From: the human T2T-CHM13v2.0 reference genome, Homo sapiens
Assembly: GCF_009914755.1 (NCBI RefSeq)
Contig: NC_060926.1
Strand: one strand, 5' to 3'
Length of the DNA stretch: 64,000 nucleotides
Shown here: in pieces, positions 2,095 to 25,868 of the stretch
Position numbering within the stretch: the first letter of the stretch is position 1
Layout: every line of letters begins with the position of its first letter
Position numbers and translations under genes: made by a program
Notes under the pieces: model-generated
Seen by the model: the letters and a program-made list of their open reading frames with translations, nothing else
What the model was told of the DNA's origin: nothing
Databases searched by the model: none

Positions 2095-2221
2095 CTCCTC
2101 CTGCACCTAGGCCTTCCCAAGAAGAGTTAGCCAGCTCCTCCATGTATGTCTTGTAATTTGGGTCATGGCACAGAACTCTGTGCTTCTCAGTCATGAGACA
2201 CGAAACCATTGCATATCTATA
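2095..2221 (-). pseudogene. S28 pseudogene later exon, 3' part only: YRYAMVSCLMTEKHRVLCHDPNYKTYMEELANSSWEGLGAGG
   Basis: Resembles the S28 C..xxY..Y...L.N.SW.G..AGG segment preceding RQWxYQTC; donor GGA G|gtaaag; 5' part is replaced by an L1 fragment. Confidence 0.75.
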
Positions 2222-2234
2222 GACTGATGGTGTG

Positions 2235-2420
2235 TGGAGGTGGCAGAAGGGATTGACAATAAAGGGCTGGGAGAATTTGGTGGGTGATGATGGAAGTGTT
2301 CTACATCTTAGCTGTGACAGTGGTTGCTTGACTGCTTATGTTTGTCAAACTCAAAACCACACACTAAAGAAAGTAAAATTCACTGTATGTCAATTATGCC
2401 TCAATTTTTAAGAAATTTTT
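2235..2420 (+). mobile_element. Old L1 (L1MC/ME-like) 3' fragment abutting pseudogene exon
   Basis: gatggaagtgttctacatctt...tttgtcaaactc...gtcaattatgcctcaat resembles mammalian L1 3' ends. Confidence 0.7.
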
Positions 2421-3161
2421 AGAAAAGAATATACATGGAACTAGCTTTCAAGTCTAAATGAAATTTACATTTGCAACTTATTTTAAATGTCTAAAGTGAT
2501 TGCTTTTATTCAAAGAAGATACAAATGAAATAAATATAAATTCCTACAGGATGAGACTCCAGGTTACTTAGCCTGGAAGATGATTGCACGAAGCTTCTGC
2601 TTGTTTGGTTTTTCTCCTTGTAAAAGATGAAAAAAAAAATGCTCAACTCTCCTAACTGGTTGCAGGGATAACTTAAAAAAAAGCAAAAAACAAACAAAAA
2701 AAACCAGACAGTTGAAAATCTCCCGTGTGAGACACATTTCTTACAACTGCTCATTTACTTTAGCAATGGCAAGCAATCCCTGGGGTTGTTGGCCTGTGAA
2801 TAAATACTGCATTTTCACAACTTCCTAAAGTTATAAAACTTTGCCTGTACATTTGCCGTATTCTCAGGACAGCTTGTGCACAGCAGACATATAAGGCAGC
2901 ATGCCTGTCCCTGGGGAAGACAATCTAGATGAAAAGACAAGACAGAAAGCCGAAAAAACACAGGTAAATAAGCTGCTGATGGACTTTGCAGATAGGGGAA
3001 CAATATGGGCTTGAGTAGTTACTGGTGGCTTCTGGGAAAGATAGGAATTGAGATAAATCTGGAAAGTTGTATAGAGACGGTAAGACAGTGCCTTCTGGCA
3101 GCAGGAATGATCAGCGAGTAAGGACAGTGCAAACAGGAAAACACAGAAATGACCTGGCACA

Positions 3162-3485
3162 GGCCAGGCACGGTGGCTCACTCCTGTAATCCCAGCACTT
3201 TAGGAGGTCGAGGCGGGCAGATCACGAGGTCAGGAGATCAAGACCATCCTGGCTAACACAGGAAACCCTGTCTCTACTAAAAATACAAAAAATTAGCCGG
3301 GAGTGGTGGCCGGCACCCGTAGTCCCAGCTACTCAGGAGGCTGAGGCAGGAGAATGGCGTGAACCCGGGAGTCAGAGCTTGTACTGAGCTGAGATCGCAC
3401 CACTGCACTCCAGCCTGGGCGACAGAGTGAGACTCCGTCTCAAAAAAATAAAAAAAATAAAGATAAATAAAAAATAAAAAAAGAA
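3162..3485 (+). mobile_element. AluY-like
   Basis: gagatcaagaccatcctggctaacac and gaatggcgtgaacccggga diagnostics; TSD agaaatgacctggcac. Confidence 0.92.
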
Positions 3486-4114
3486 ATGACCTGGCACTAA
3501 AATCATCTGTCACCTTGACAGCAGGGTAGTGTCTTTTCAGCCAAGCAGTAAATCCAGGCTTGGATGGGTCTGGCAAACCCTGAAGCCTAAAGCTCAGCTT
3601 CCCTCCTTTCAGGAGGATTCAGCGGCCAAACCCAATTTCAGCCAGGTCAACATTTACCACGTAGCTTACTACATATCCAGAGGCCTATAGGGAACTGGTT
3701 GACAAAGTATGTCTGACGCTACATTATAATGAAGCTATATTATAATAAAGCATGGATTCAGTGTTTTTGGTTGAACCAAGGGAAGAGGCTTCAATAACGT
3801 ATTTTGCTGAGTGCATAATGTATTGTCATGGAATAAGTGACTTTTTTCCTCATTTCTCTGACTCTTTCTAGGGACAAATGTCAAACTTCACAATAGAACT
3901 ATACATTCAGGTCAGGATAAGGAAACCCACAAGATTTTCAGACTGTGTTCTACCACTTAATGCAAAAGGAACCTTCATATTTAATTTTAGTGTGCTCTCA
4001 GAATAAAAGATTAATTTTTTTAAATGACAGGCCAGAAGATTTAAAATTTGCAGTTACTGACCCACACAGATCCAAGGCTGTTCTGAAATTCTCTGGCCTA
4101 ATTCCCTTAAACAA

Positions 4115-4146
4115 ACACACACACACACACACACACACACACACAC
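4115..4146 (+). repeat. (CA)n microsatellite
   Basis: Direct CA run. Confidence 0.95.
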
Positions 4147-4151
4147 CCCAC

Positions 4152-23009: not shown

Positions 23010-24150
23010 AACGCCTGCAAATCAGAGAGGAAGAAAAATGGGATACTCAATAGGAAACTGGACAAGGAATATTAAAATGCAGTTCAGAGAAGAAAACGGA
23101 GCCTTCTCTAGGGTCAGAAGAATGTAAGTTAAAACAACCCTGAGATTCTATTTTCACCCATCAGATTGCCAAAAATTTAGAATTTTGATAAAATCATTTC
23201 TTGACAAAGACGTGAAAAAACAAGAATTATGCACTGTTAGTGGGACCATAGTTTATGTGTTCATTTGGAGAACAGTCTGGCAAGATTTTGTAAAATTGAG
23301 CACACCAATATCCTCACACGCAGCTTTTCTACTCCTGAGTCTATAGGCCAGAAAAGTTATCTCACAGATGCCCAAGGTACCAAGTACTAGTGGGATGAAT
23401 ACAGCATTGCGGTTTCCAGGAGTCAGAGACAATAAAGATGCTCATCGAAATGAAACAGATAAGTAAAATGTTCACCACATATATACTATAACACTGTACA
23501 GGAGGAAGAAGAGAGGAAGGAGGGAACTAGCTGCACATACAGCAACATGAATGGATCTCCAAACCATAACACTAAAAAAAAAAAAAAAAGCTCACCCCTG
23601 TAATCCTAGCACTTTGGGAGGATGAGGAGGGCGAATCACTTGAGGCCAGGAGTTCAAGACCAGCCTGGCCAACATGGTGAAACCCCGTCTCTACTAAAAA
23701 TACAAAAATTAGCTGGGTGTGTTGGTAGGCGCCTGTAATCCCAGCTACTCAGGAGGCTGAGGCAGGAGAATCGCTTGAACCCAGGAGGTGGAGGTTGCAG
23801 TGAGCTGAGATCGCGCCATTGCACTCCAGCCTAGGCAACAGAGCAAGACTCTGTCTCAAATAAAAAAAAAAAAAAAAGGAACAGAGTGGATCTAGGGCAT
23901 AATACCATTTCAGTACATTTTTTAAAGCAAAAGCAATACAGTATGTTTTTCATTGGACACACATCTAAAGAAACTTGCTGAAAGTCGCTTGGAAGGGCAC
24001 ATAGTAAATATACAAGATGTGAGGAGGGGAATGAAATTGGGAACCAGGAGTGAAAAGAGAAGAAAGTAAAATTAAAATAAAAGAGGGGCTGCAGCATAAA
24101 ATGATGGTGATGAAGTGCCATGAAATTAGGAGCACAAATCAGCTCAGTTC
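23010..24150 (+). mobile_element. Old L1 (L1ME-like) fragment with AluS at about 23590-23878
   Basis: Degenerate L1 3' text and Alu consensus. Confidence 0.6.
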
Positions 24151-24484
24151 AATGCCGCTAAACAATCTTCAGGATCATACTGTGGAACAGAAAGGAAAAA
24201 AAAAACAAGATAAATAACTTAAATTTCCCCCAAAGGAAATCTGGGCTTATAAGCTCAACAGTATCGCCTGCAGCTACTACAATTTACCATAGATGCTAAC
24301 TGTGTAGTGAAATGGACATTTATGAAATAATAGTCTGTGGCCATAGCAGAGGGAAAGTAGAACACAGAATTACATGGAAACCATGGTTGCAACTACATCA
24401 AAAGGATAAAAACGCATAAGAACACAGGGAAACAGAAGCACGTGTAAGGAAGAGGAATCACAAATTTTCTTTAACAGAAAATCA

Positions 24485-24850
24485 AGTCGGGCACAGTGGC
24501 TTACACCTATTATCCCAGCACTCTGGGAGGCCAAGGTAGGAGGATTGCTTGAGCCAGGAGTTCCAGAAGAGCTTGGAAAGCATAATGAGAACCCATCTCT
24601 ACAAAAAATAAATACACAAAAATAGCCTCAACCTCGAGGACTCAAGCGATCCTCTTGCCTCAGCATCCAAATTAGCTGGGATGCTGAGCTACTTGGGATG
24701 CTACTTGAGAGCTACTTGGAATGCTGTTGCAAGAGGCTCACTTGAGTCCTGGAGGTCGAGACTGCAGTGAGCCATAAACGCGCCACTGCATTCCAGCCTG
24801 GACGACAGAGCAGGACCCTGTCTCAAAAAAAAAAAAAAAAAAAAAAAAAA
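24485..24850 (+). mobile_element. AluJ-like with internal inverted duplication
   Basis: Alu consensus with an antisense Alu segment at 24624-24677. Confidence 0.88.
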
Positions 24851-25210
24851 ACCCGAAAATTATAAAGTACTTTTGAAAATAAGGAATAAACAGAATATAT
24901 GAATTGACACAAGAATCGCATCACGATTGCCCTTCTTAGCAGCCAAATGTTGGCTATGGCTTCCTTGTTTATTTGTTTTTAAAATTATAGCAGCTGGGCT
25001 CTACCGCATGCCCCCAAAGCAACCCCTTCAAAACCCAGAAGCTGAAAAAGACCTCAGAAGAGATGTGAGGAAAATTGACAAAATGTTTACAGTTGTTCTG
25101 TTAGGTGTCATTACATGAGGCTGTGATATTATTTTCTGTACTCTTTTGCATATTTGAAAGATTTCATAATTAAAAGTAAATATAAATTAGTGTAATAAGA
25201 TGCAAAATGG

Positions 25211-25535
25211 GGCCAGGAGCGGTGGCTCACTCCTGTAATCCCATCACTTCGAGAGGCTGAGGCGGGTGGATCACTTGAGGTCAGCAGGTGGATCACCTGA
25301 GGTCAGGAGTTCGAGACCAGCCCAGCCAACATGGTGAAACCCCATCTCTACCAAAAAAAAAAAGTACAAACATTAGCTGGGCGTGGTGGCACATGCCTGT
25401 AGTTCAGCTACTTGGGAGGCTGAGGCAGGAGGATCACTTGAGTCCAGGAGGTGGAGGTTGCAGTGAGCTGAGATCGTGCCACTGCCCTCCAGCCTGGGCG
25501 ACAGAGTAAGACCCAATCTCAAAAAAAAAAAGAAA
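25211..25535 (+). mobile_element. AluS with short internal tandem duplication
   Basis: ggtggatcac..gaggtcag repeated; degenerate TSD aagatgc.aaatgg. Confidence 0.9.
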
Positions 25536-25691
25536 GATGCTAAATGGCCGTCTCAGAACCCGGCCCAGAGGAGGTCTGCAGAACACCCTGGTTCCTCTTC
25601 TCTCCCATCCCCTCCAGAGCTCCACCAACGAGACCTCAGAGCTGGCACCATCCCTTACCTGTTACCACCTACCGTGGTCATTGTTTTTTAC

Positions 25692-25868
25692 CTGTTGCCA
25701 GACTTGCCCACTATCATTACTAAAACAGTCAAGCTTTTGTTGGAACCATTGGTCATTTTCATCCTTCTCTGTCGACGGTGGAGCAGATCGCCTCCATCTG
25801 GGGATGAAACTCTGAACGTAGGAACAGAGGAGCAGCAGCAGCAGCCTCCACCCAGGAGCTCAGGCCAC
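25692..25868 (-). pseudogene. S28 pseudogene exon 1: (M>V)A*APGWRLLLLLLCSYVQSFIPRWRRSAPPSTEKDENDQWFQQKLDCFSNDSGQVWQQ
   Basis: Kozak-like GCAGCC-GTG-G; TGA at codon 3 (25860-25862); Leu-rich signal peptide; S28 motif WFxQKLDHF..W.QR; donor CAG|gtaaaa at 25692/25691; 177 nt, phase 0. Confidence 0.9.

What the first reader, a model, noticed from the sequence alone, without database searches (positions are those of the whole stretch)
2095..25868. Hidden multi-exon fossil of an additional S28 serine peptidase gene downstream of FAM124B (candidate unitary pseudogene)
Seen in sequence: exons at 25692-25868, 19046-19230, 13904-14136, 12530-12663 and 2095-2221 (minus strand) lie in order, and exons 1-4 splice in compatible phases (CAG|AGG, TT|A, G|AC). 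They yield signal peptide, WFQQKLD(C)F, WQQR, PGGPVFLIVGGE, EHRFY, YLSSRQALA, FGGS(C)AGSL, YLEVV...C and SW.G.GAGG. Established: these are peptidase family S28 hallmarks, and the functional human members are PRCP, DPP7 and PRSS16, none of which neighbours FAM124B. Inference: introns rule out a retrocopy, and the residues differ substantially from PRSS16 as I recall it, so this may be a separate paralog lost in the human lineage. I recall similar proteins in other vertebrates named 'putative serine protease K12H4.7-like', but this is unverified. I do not know whether the locus is already annotated.
Basis: partly seen in the sequence, partly recalled or inferred. Interest (0 to 1): 0.92.

Follow-up and report, generated by a model that had tools for sequence, protein, structure and literature searches.

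The report
Dead S28 peptidase genes beside FAM124B
Downstream of human FAM124B lie the decayed, intron-containing remains of a fourth S28 serine peptidase gene, and of a second, older tandem copy, a gene type that lemurs, colugos, elephants, platypus, amphibians and fish still carry intact.

Summary
All five claimed minus-strand exons carry the stated motifs. Exons 2 and 3 hit Pfam Peptidase_S28 (E 8e-14 and 1.8e-17).

The relic (psiA) is larger than reported. It has nine exons from window 25868 to -5297, including one missed exon (7263-7358) and three exons left of the window carrying RQWFYQTC, DPW and AHCAN. It is dead: ATG is GTG, there are four substitution stops, three frame disruptions, two damaged splice sites and an in-frame deletion.

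Its closest relative is an intact mouse-lemur protein, 'putative serine protease K12H4.7' (71.5% identity; sister at 100/100 support). Identity to human PRSS16 is 31.6%, so it is not a copy of PRSS16, PRCP or DPP7.

A second, more decayed tandem relic (psiB, window -26344 to -78975) groups with the colugo and afrotherian genes. This suggests two old placental paralogues, both lost in humans.

Synteny in other species and GENCODE annotation status could not be checked. Four literature searches found no description. This is a solid, ordinary kind of finding: an unannotated unitary pseudogene pair, of moderate interest.

The parts
25692..25868 (-). psiA exon 1: signal peptide and WFQQKLDCF motif. 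The start codon reads GTG and codon 3 is TGA. GT donor present.
   Evidence: tblastn to P0283, P0015 and P0008, whose N-termini begin MAR/MAQ.
19046..19230 (-). psiA exon 2: PGGPVFLIVGGE...EHRFY. A 1-nt loss in the Trp codon gives an in-frame TGA. A 1-nt gain in a G run about 25 nt further on restores the frame, leaving 8 codons out of frame.
   Evidence: Pfam PF05577 E 8.1e-14. 67% identical to lemur P0304. Frames.
13904..14136 (-). psiA exon 3: YLSSRQALA...FGGSCAGSL, with the catalytic Ser codon kept. TGA stands where relatives have Arg. AG acceptor and GT donor present.
   Evidence: Pfam E 1.8e-17. 72.5% identical to P0304. PDB DPP7 E 4e-6 and PRCP E 8e-5.
12530..12663 (-). psiA exon 4: YLEVVQNSLAAHNSECPEIV, then a frame loss (2 nt missing near 12601), then QASDIMVEMLKSSANHDELTKDF. 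AT stands where the AG acceptor should be. GT donor present.
   Evidence: tblastn gives two HSPs in different frames, 90% and 59% identical to P0304. Sequence.
The only AG upstream puts it out of frame, and no GT donor follows 7263. About 30 codons that follow in relatives were not found.
   Evidence: tblastn 62.5% to P0304 (E 4e-8) and 53% to Rhinatrema P0153. Custom HMM i-E 2.9e-4. No Pfam hit alone.
2095..2266 (-). psiA exon 6: PFIVNPFCHLHTPS..VYRYAMVSCLM...ELANSSWEGLGAGG. It has a 5-codon in-frame deletion relative to homologues. The acceptor at about 2266 is inferred. GT donor present.

The remaining parts lie LEFT of the window and cannot be entered as rows. All are on the minus strand, in window coordinates.
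- psiA exon 7: -1811..-1726 (ARQWFYQTCTEFGF*, TAG stop)
- psiA exon 8: -4126..-3917 (TAG stop and a 1-nt deletion; DPW kept)
- psiA exon 9: -5297..-5176 (GEAHCAN...FLQKWLTNPSDR, then stop)
- psiB remnants: e2 -26463..-26344; e3 -42170..-41988; e4 -43340..-43205; e5 -61745..-61659; e6 -70290..-70085; e7 -75499..-75407; e8 -78975..-78733
   Evidence: Exon 6: tblastn to P0304 (44%, E 7e-8), P0153, P0158 and P0025; sequence.

Parts outside the window:
- Pfam on psiA: e7 E 1.5e-8, e8 E 6.5e-8, e9 E 0.017.
- Pfam on psiB: e3 E 4.1e-5, e7 E 1.2e-6.
- tblastn; custom HMM; own-genome scans.

Best explanation
The window holds most of a non-processed (intron-containing) unitary pseudogene, psiA. It is the human remnant of a fourth vertebrate lineage of family S28 serine peptidases, the one NCBI labels 'putative serine protease K12H4.7' or 'thymus-specific serine protease(-like)' in other vertebrates.

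The ancestral gene had nine or more exons on the minus strand, 3' of FAM124B. It encoded a signal-peptide-bearing alpha/beta-hydrolase with a Ser-Asp-His triad. By homology with PRCP, DPP7 and PRSS16 this was presumably a secreted or lysosomal proline-directed exopeptidase (inferred).

In the human lineage it lost its start codon, gained stops and frameshifts, and lost splice signals. No protein can be made, so the sequence does nothing as a gene and drifts neutrally.

A second, older and more decayed tandem relic (psiB) lies 20-75 kb further downstream on the same strand. psiA is the counterpart of the intact mouse-lemur gene. psiB is the counterpart of the colugo and afrotherian genes.

Shown: homology, exon order, the lesions, phylogenetic placement, and the absence of an intact copy in this assembly.

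Inferred: the ancestral function; the time of death (tens of millions of years ago, after the split from lemurs for psiA and earlier for psiB); and orthology by position.
For: Family membership:
- Pfam PF05577 hits above the 25-bit cut-off on psiA exons 2, 3, 7 and 8 and on psiB exon 7.
- A whole-genome PF05577 scan gave 18 matches: 4 at this locus, 8 in PRSS16, 3 in PRCP, 2 in DPP7 and 1 in a PRCP retrocopy.

Exon structure:
- tblastn with named intact proteins recovers nine collinear exons.
- Identity to lemur P0304 runs from 44% to 90% per HSP, and the match continues through the C-terminus (FLQKWLTNPSD against FLQKWLTNTSN).
- All 19 custom-HMM hits over 164 kb are on the minus strand and in profile order, 12 in psiA and 7 in psiB.
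- Canonical AG/GT sites are retained at most junctions.
- No exon overlaps a masked repeat.

Lesions were read directly.

Phylogeny, careful tree of 32 rows x 486 columns:
- psiA + Microcebus, 100/100
- psiB + Galeopterus, 99/82
- placental clade, 100/98
- PRSS16 (human + Cavia), a separate 100/100 clade
- The human psiA end branch is 0.30 against 0.14 for the lemur, as expected for relaxed constraint.

Identities: psiA to lemur 268 of 375; to platypus 54.1%; to carp 50.8%; to PRSS16 114 of 361.

An own-genome search with P0304 gave 13 matches: 8 in psiA, 2 in psiB, 1 each in the PRCP retrocopy, PRCP and PRSS16, and no other copy.
Against: - Synteny of the intact genes with FAM124B in other species was not testable here, so orthology rests on the tree and sequence identity alone.
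- The lemur, colugo and afrotherian proteins are computational gene predictions. P0304 is an isoform that starts inside exon 2, and its function is untested.
- About 30 codons between exons 5 and 6 were not located.
- The damaged splice sites of exons 4 and 5 are inferred without outgroup DNA.
- The vertebrate clade holding the placental genes has only 82/74 support in the careful tree. The position of PRSS16 relative to it is unresolved (AU p 0.18).
- The genome scans score only the best candidates, so 'no intact copy' is a lower-bound statement.
- Residual transcription or a non-coding role was not examined.
Confidence: 0.92

Rival explanations
1. The exons are a recent segmental or duplicated pseudogene copy of one of the three functional human S28 genes (PRSS16, PRCP or DPP7).
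For: It belongs to the same Pfam family. The human genome does hold another S28 pseudogene, a PRCP retrocopy at C2:101979949-101980524.
Against: - psiA is 31.6% identical to PRSS16, 34.1% to DPP7 and 26.2% to PRCP, but 71.5% to the lemur K12H4.7 protein and 50.8% to a carp protein.
- In the tree, PRSS16 and DPP7+PRCP are separate 100/100 clades.
Confidence: 0.01
2. The locus is still a working gene. It might be read through alternative splicing that skips the damaged exons, or work as a regulated non-coding RNA derived from the old gene.
For: - The three catalytic codons (Ser in GGSCAG, Asp in DPW, His in AHCAN) survive.
- Most splice sites survive.
Against: - The start codon is lost and codon 3 is a stop.
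- Every one of exons 1, 2, 3, 4, 7 and 8 carries a stop or frameshift, so no exon-skipping path keeps the hydrolase fold.
- RefSeq lists no transcript here (hub table).
- There is no CpG island upstream of exon 1: CpG observed/expected 0.25.
- The human branch is twice as long as the lemur's.
Confidence: 0.04
3. psiA and psiB come from a late duplication within the primate-colugo stem, not from two old placental paralogues. The tree topology would then be a rate artefact.
For: - The two relics sit in tandem on one strand.
- psiB has a very long end branch (0.96) and fills only 43% of the columns, so its placement is fragile.
- No species in hand was shown to carry both types intact.
Against: - psiB pairs with Galeopterus (99/82), and that pair groups with Afrotheria (100/98) rather than with psiA+Microcebus.
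- Holding {psiA, Microcebus, psiB, Galeopterus} together costs 14.7 lnL, AU p 0.018. That group was named after the tree was seen.
- Microcebus to Galeopterus identity (60.1%) is no higher than either to platypus (60.6% and 59.2%).
- In the 61-row tree, none of the 38 rows of the afrotherian clade joins psiA.
Confidence: 0.2

Closest known systems
'Putative serine protease K12H4.7' of Microcebus murinus (P0304) and its vertebrate relatives. These include Galeopterus P0298, many afrotherian copies, platypus P0158, and amphibian, coelacanth, shark and ray-finned-fish genes, which are often labelled 'thymus-specific serine protease'.
   Same: - Same S28 lineage, with exon-by-exon homology.
- 71.5% identity to the lemur protein and the same C-terminal tail.
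- Signal peptide like the afrotherian copies.
- Sister to the lemur protein at 100/100.
   Different: The human copy is disabled in at least six of nine exons, whereas those genes are predicted intact with GGSY.G, DPW and HC motifs. Their position relative to FAM124B was not checked.
PRSS16 (thymus-specific serine protease, human chr6)
   Same: - Family S28, a multi-exon gene.
- GGSY.G, RQWxYQTCTEFG, DPWH and HC motifs.
- It is the nearest functional human family member by tree position.
   Different: - Only 31.6% identical.
- Lies on a different chromosome.
- Forms a separate, long, compositionally odd branch.
- Whether it is an old paralogue or a fast-evolving vertebrate duplicate of this lineage is unresolved (AU p 0.18).
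PRCP and DPP7 (solved structures 3N2Z, 3JYH, 3N0T and 4EBB)
   Same: The same alpha/beta-hydrolase S28 core. Exon 3 aligns to the nucleophile-elbow region of both (E 4e-6 and 8e-5).
   Different: 26-34% identity, and they form the outgroup clade. Both are functional, on chr11 and chr9.
Human unitary pseudogenes in general (the examples GULOP and the urate oxidase relic are recalled, not taken from any call)
   Same: A multi-exon relic at the ancestral locus, with no functional counterpart in the genome and intact orthologues in other mammals.
   Different: - There are two tandem relics of different age.
- They are absent from the RefSeq table supplied.
- No description was found in four literature searches.

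Membership tests
Peptidase family S28 (Pfam PF05577) | Significant match to the family profile above the gathering score | tested here: met
   - psiA: exon 2 51.7 bits, exon 3 63.8, exon 7 34.3, exon 8 32.2 (cut-off 25).
- psiB: exon 7 28.0 bits; exon 3 23.0 bits, just under the cut-off.
Peptidase family S28 (Pfam PF05577) | Catalytic Ser in GGSY.G, Asp in DPW and His in (A/S)HC | tested here: met
   The codons are present in psiA as GGSCAG, IDPWHA and EAHCAN. The motif positions follow the aligned homologues; the assignment of catalytic roles is recalled from PRCP and DPP7 structures.
Peptidase family S28 (Pfam PF05577) | Intact open reading frame able to give a folded enzyme | tested here: not met
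   The ATG reads GTG. There are 4 substitution stops, a -1/+1 indel pair, 2 further frameshifts, a 5-codon deletion and about 30 codons missing. It belongs to the family by descent only.
Unitary (non-processed) pseudogene | Introns at ancestral positions with exons in order, so not a retrocopy | tested here: met
   Nine exons spread over about 31 kb, with AG/GT at most junctions.
Unitary (non-processed) pseudogene | No functional copy of the same orthologous group elsewhere in the genome | tested here: met
   Whole-assembly scans with PF05577 and with lemur P0304 found only psiA, psiB, PRSS16, PRCP, DPP7 and a PRCP retrocopy. The scans score only the best candidates.
Unitary (non-processed) pseudogene | Intact orthologue in other species at the syntenic position | tested here: inconclusive
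   Intact predicted proteins exist, and psiA is sister to the lemur one. No vertebrate genome other than this one could be read, so synteny was not tested.
Processed pseudogene (retrocopy) | Contiguous intronless copy of the mRNA | tested here: not met
   The exons are separated by 1.2-6.5 kb introns. By contrast, the PRCP retrocopy L001 covers profile positions 1-196 in one 576-nt stretch.

The most novel reading that the evidence does not exclude
The two relics may be what is left in humans of the ancestral vertebrate S28 gene. This is the very gene that fish, amphibians, coelacanth, shark and platypus still carry, and that databases call 'thymus-specific serine protease / PRSS16'.

Three things would follow:
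1. Mammalian PRSS16 is not the one-to-one orthologue of fish 'prss16'. It is a divergent paralogue.
2. Placental ancestors had two tandem paralogues (A and B) that were sorted out differently: lemur keeps A, colugo keeps B, Afrotheria expanded B into dozens of copies, and humans lost both.
3. Work that uses fish prss16 as a stand-in for TSSP would need re-reading.
Probability: 0.4. Interest if true: 0.6.

Novelty: new member of a known kind. Interest (0 to 1): 0.42.

Why it matters
- It adds a fourth S28 lineage to the list of human protease losses. The human complement is three genes out of an ancestral four or five.
- It supplies two neutral, datable markers on 2q36.
- It flags a naming problem. 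Non-mammalian genes labelled PRSS16 or 'thymus-specific serine protease' cluster with this dead lineage and not with mammalian PRSS16.
- It points to an unexplained large expansion of the family in Afrotheria.
- It makes the function of the surviving genes in lemur, elephant and platypus a testable question.
- It does not change any established mechanism.

Tried and rejected
- The search for homologous proteins with exon 3 alone against longer proteins found nothing: 1231 candidates, none at E<=0.001. The exhaustive representative search was needed instead.
- The UniRef name 'Serine protease 59, putative' on fish relatives suggested the locus might be HGNC PRSS59P. This was rejected. In the passages read, PRSS59P is placed at chr7:142.49 Mb (Table 2 of PMC12153387) and is listed among sperm trypsin-like pseudogenes (PMC12691765).
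- The Atlantic cod paper PMC9801969 (one passage read) only lists a de novo transcript with best hit K12H4.7, which is not informative.
- PMC7695478 (three passages read) speaks only of mouse Prss16 expression and says nothing on gene history.
- The retrocopy L001 was considered as a possible retrocopy of the lost gene. Its translation resembles my recollection of PRCP, and its best match to lemur P0304 is 29%, so it is a PRCP retrocopy.
- Pfam gave no hit for psiA exons 1, 4, 5 and 6, nor for psiB exon 4, taken alone. Their assignment rests on tblastn and the custom HMM.
- Intron-position comparison with PRSS16 was considered and dropped, because local-alignment ends are too imprecise.
- Literature searches that found no description of this locus: FAM124B/pseudogene/S28 (listing only); PRSS16 + 'unitary pseudogene' (0 papers); 'peptidase S28' + 'gene loss' + primates (0 papers); PRSS16P, PRSS16L, PRSS16-like, 'thymus-specific serine protease-like' and K12H4.7-like (2 unrelated papers). 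Subscription journals and databases (GENCODE, MEROPS, Degradome) were not searchable.

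
Full report
**1. The observation**

The window is human chr2 (T2T), downstream of FAM124B.
- Exon 1 gives a hydrophobic signal-like stretch, WFQQKLDCF and WQQ.
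- Exon 2 gives PGGPVFLIVGGE and EHRFY.
- Exon 3 gives YLSSRQALA and FGGSCAGSL.
- Exon 4 gives YLEVVQNSLAAHNSEC.
- The last gives NSSWEGLGAGG.

With stops read as X, exon 2 hits Pfam Peptidase_S28 at E 8.1e-14 (profile 17-76). Exon 3 hits at E 1.8e-17 (profile 78-152). Exons 1, 4 and 5 alone give no Pfam hit. Junction phases and GT donors are as stated. No exon overlaps a masked repeat.

**2. The full extent of the relic**

A PF05577 scan of the whole assembly gave 18 matches:
- 8 in PRSS16 (chr6)
- 3 in PRCP (chr11)
- 2 in DPP7 (chr9)
- 1 contiguous PRCP-like retrocopy (chr2:101.98 Mb)
- 4 at this locus, two of them left of the window

I fetched the left flank and obtained intact relatives from an exhaustive search with exon 3. 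These were later named. tblastn with them recovers nine collinear exons:
- e1: 25868-25692
- e2: 19230-19046
- e3: 14136-13904
- e4: 12663-12530
- e5: 7358-7263, a new exon (VCKTLQINSEMD...)
- e6: about 2266-2095
- e7: -1726..-1811 (ARQWFYQTCTEFGF*)
- e8: -3917..-4126 (...IDPWHALG...)
- e9: -5176..-5297 (GEAHCAN...FLQKWLTNPSDR then stop)

Pfam confirms e7 (1.5e-8), e8 (6.5e-8) and, weakly, e9 (0.017).

**3. The gene is dead**

Compared with the lemur and other proteins, psiA carries these lesions:
- The start codon reads GTG, and codon 3 is TGA.
- Exon 2 has lost one G in a Trp codon, which gives an in-frame TGA. It gained one G in a G run about 25 nt later. The eight codons between read LMENAKKLG in another frame, against lemur WMKYAEKLG.
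- Exon 3 has TGA where relatives have Arg.
- Exon 4 has AT where the AG acceptor should be, and has lost 2 nt near 12601.
- Exon 5 is out of frame from the only available AG and has no GT donor.
- About 30 codons between exons 5 and 6 were not found.
- Exon 6 lacks 5 codons.
- Exon 7 has TAG.
- Exon 8 has TAG and a 1-nt deletion.

The Ser, Asp and His codons happen to survive. Upstream of exon 1 there is no CpG island (observed/expected 0.25).

**4. What it is related to**

The name-bearing searches show where the relatives come from.
- Microcebus murinus: P0304, 'putative serine protease K12H4.7 isoform X2', 426 aa.
- Galeopterus variegatus: P0298.
- Many afrotherian copies: manatees, dugong, elephants, golden mole, aardvark and elephant shrew.
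- Platypus: P0158, labelled thymus-specific serine protease.
- Caecilians, salamanders, frogs, lungfish, coelacanth, a shark and many ray-finned fish.

Identities over aligned columns:

| psiA compared with | Identity |
|---|---|
| lemur P0304 | 268 of 375 (71.5%) |
| platypus | 54.1% |
| carp | 50.8% |
| human PRSS16 | 114 of 361 (31.6%) |
| DPP7 | 34.1% (173 columns) |
| PRCP | 26.2% (233 columns) |

For the tree, the human paralogues were assembled inside the script box from genomic HMM hits. The careful IQ-TREE run used 32 rows and 486 columns, with three long-branch rows (Steinernema, Panagrellus, Monosiga) left out. It gives:
- psiA + Microcebus, 100/100
- a placental clade, 100/98
- that clade inside a vertebrate clade, 82/74
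- PRSS16 (human + Cavia) as a separate 100/100 clade outside it, 89/87
- DPP7 + PRCP as the outgroup

The earlier quick trees agree. The 'recent duplicate of PRSS16, PRCP or DPP7' refutation therefore fails. The human end branch (0.30) is twice the lemur's (0.14).

**5. A second relic**

Searching the assembly with lemur P0304 gave 13 matches: 8 in psiA, 1 each in the PRCP retrocopy, PRCP and PRSS16, and 2 about 75 kb further left. I fetched 80 kb more and ran a custom S28 HMM over 164 kb on both strands. This gave 19 hits at i-E<0.05, all on the minus strand: 12 in psiA and 7 in a second collinear series from window -26398 to -78969. tblastn refines these to seven exon remnants.

This psiB is far more decayed. 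It matches the colugo protein better than the lemur one (exon 4: 64.5% against 43.8%; overall: 56.2% against 46.7%).

For the tree I stitched psiB from the HMM hits, to avoid bias toward any one query. It pairs with Galeopterus (99/82), and that pair joins Afrotheria (100/98), not psiA + Microcebus.
- Forcing the four euarchontan rows together costs 14.7 lnL, AU p 0.018. That group was chosen after the tree was seen.
- With 29 more mammalian rows, all 38 rows of the afrotherian clade stay together (SH-aLRT 99) and none joins psiA. Two of the 38 are unnamed records.

The simplest reading is two old tandem paralogues (A and B), both lost in humans. psiB's long branch keeps this provisional.

**6. 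Timing (inference)**

The lemur counterpart is predicted intact. psiA was therefore probably disabled after the split from strepsirrhines, unless the loss was independent. The number of lesions, and a human branch at or above what neutral drift over that span would give, point to tens of millions of years of decay. psiB died earlier. Other primate genomes were not available, so no shared-lesion dating was possible.

**7. PRSS16**

The data cannot reject a tree in which PRSS16 joins the vertebrate K12H4.7-like genes to the exclusion of the invertebrate ones (AU p 0.18). PRSS16 may therefore be an old paralogue or a fast-evolving vertebrate duplicate. Either way, the fish, amphibian and platypus genes that carry the PRSS16 name sit with the dead human lineage and not with mammalian PRSS16.

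**8. Is it known?**

- The RefSeq table supplied lists nothing here.
- Four literature searches found no description.
- The PRSS59P lead was checked and rejected. It lies on chr7, according to passages of PMC12153387 and PMC12691765.
- GENCODE, MEROPS, Degradome and TOGA could not be consulted.

**9. Verdict**

This is a real, well-supported unitary pseudogene of a fourth S28 peptidase lineage, extended here to nine exons and joined by a second, older tandem relic. It is a new member of a known kind. It has moderate interest for protease gene-loss catalogues and for the orthology of 'PRSS16' outside mammals.

Noticed in passing
L001 (G000:C2:101979949-101980524, minus strand; outside the window): A contiguous, intronless S28 match covers Pfam positions 1-196 with 5 stops. 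By recollection, its translation looks like PRCP: signal peptide, FQQRVDHFGF, then later DPWSGGGVTKDITDTLV. It is a processed PRCP pseudogene, unrelated to the finding.
   Followed up: partly
window -26344 to -78975 (loci L027-L032, minus strand): This is psiB, the second, older tandem S28 pseudogene with seven collinear exon remnants. The annotated small pseudogene LOC100289117 (plus strand, -33926..-33768) sits inside one of its introns.
   Followed up: yes
proteins P0013, P0015 and P0272-P0313: Afrotheria carry many predicted copies of this S28 gene. Several lie on one contig per species (for example a 150 Mb Trichechus inunguis contig). They form one clade of 38 rows. This is a lineage-specific expansion with no explanation so far.
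   Followed up: partly
P0003 (unnamed record, 103 aa): This open reading frame is 82% identical to human psiA exon 3 and runs on through the same intron flanks. It has Arg where human has TGA, and GGTFAG in place of GGSCAG, so the nucleophile Ser is replaced. It looks like the same relic in another genome.
   Followed up: no
(source names): Naming of this lineage is inconsistent across databases. The labels seen are 'putative serine protease K12H4.7', 'thymus-specific serine protease', 'Serine protease 16' and 'Serine protease 59, putative'. The last has nothing to do with human PRSS59P on chr7.
   Followed up: yes
P0005 (61 aa): The protein library holds a 61-aa predicted 'protein' identical to the psiA exon 3 ORF from its internal Met, running into the intron. 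It is a gene-caller artefact, not evidence of a gene.
   Followed up: no
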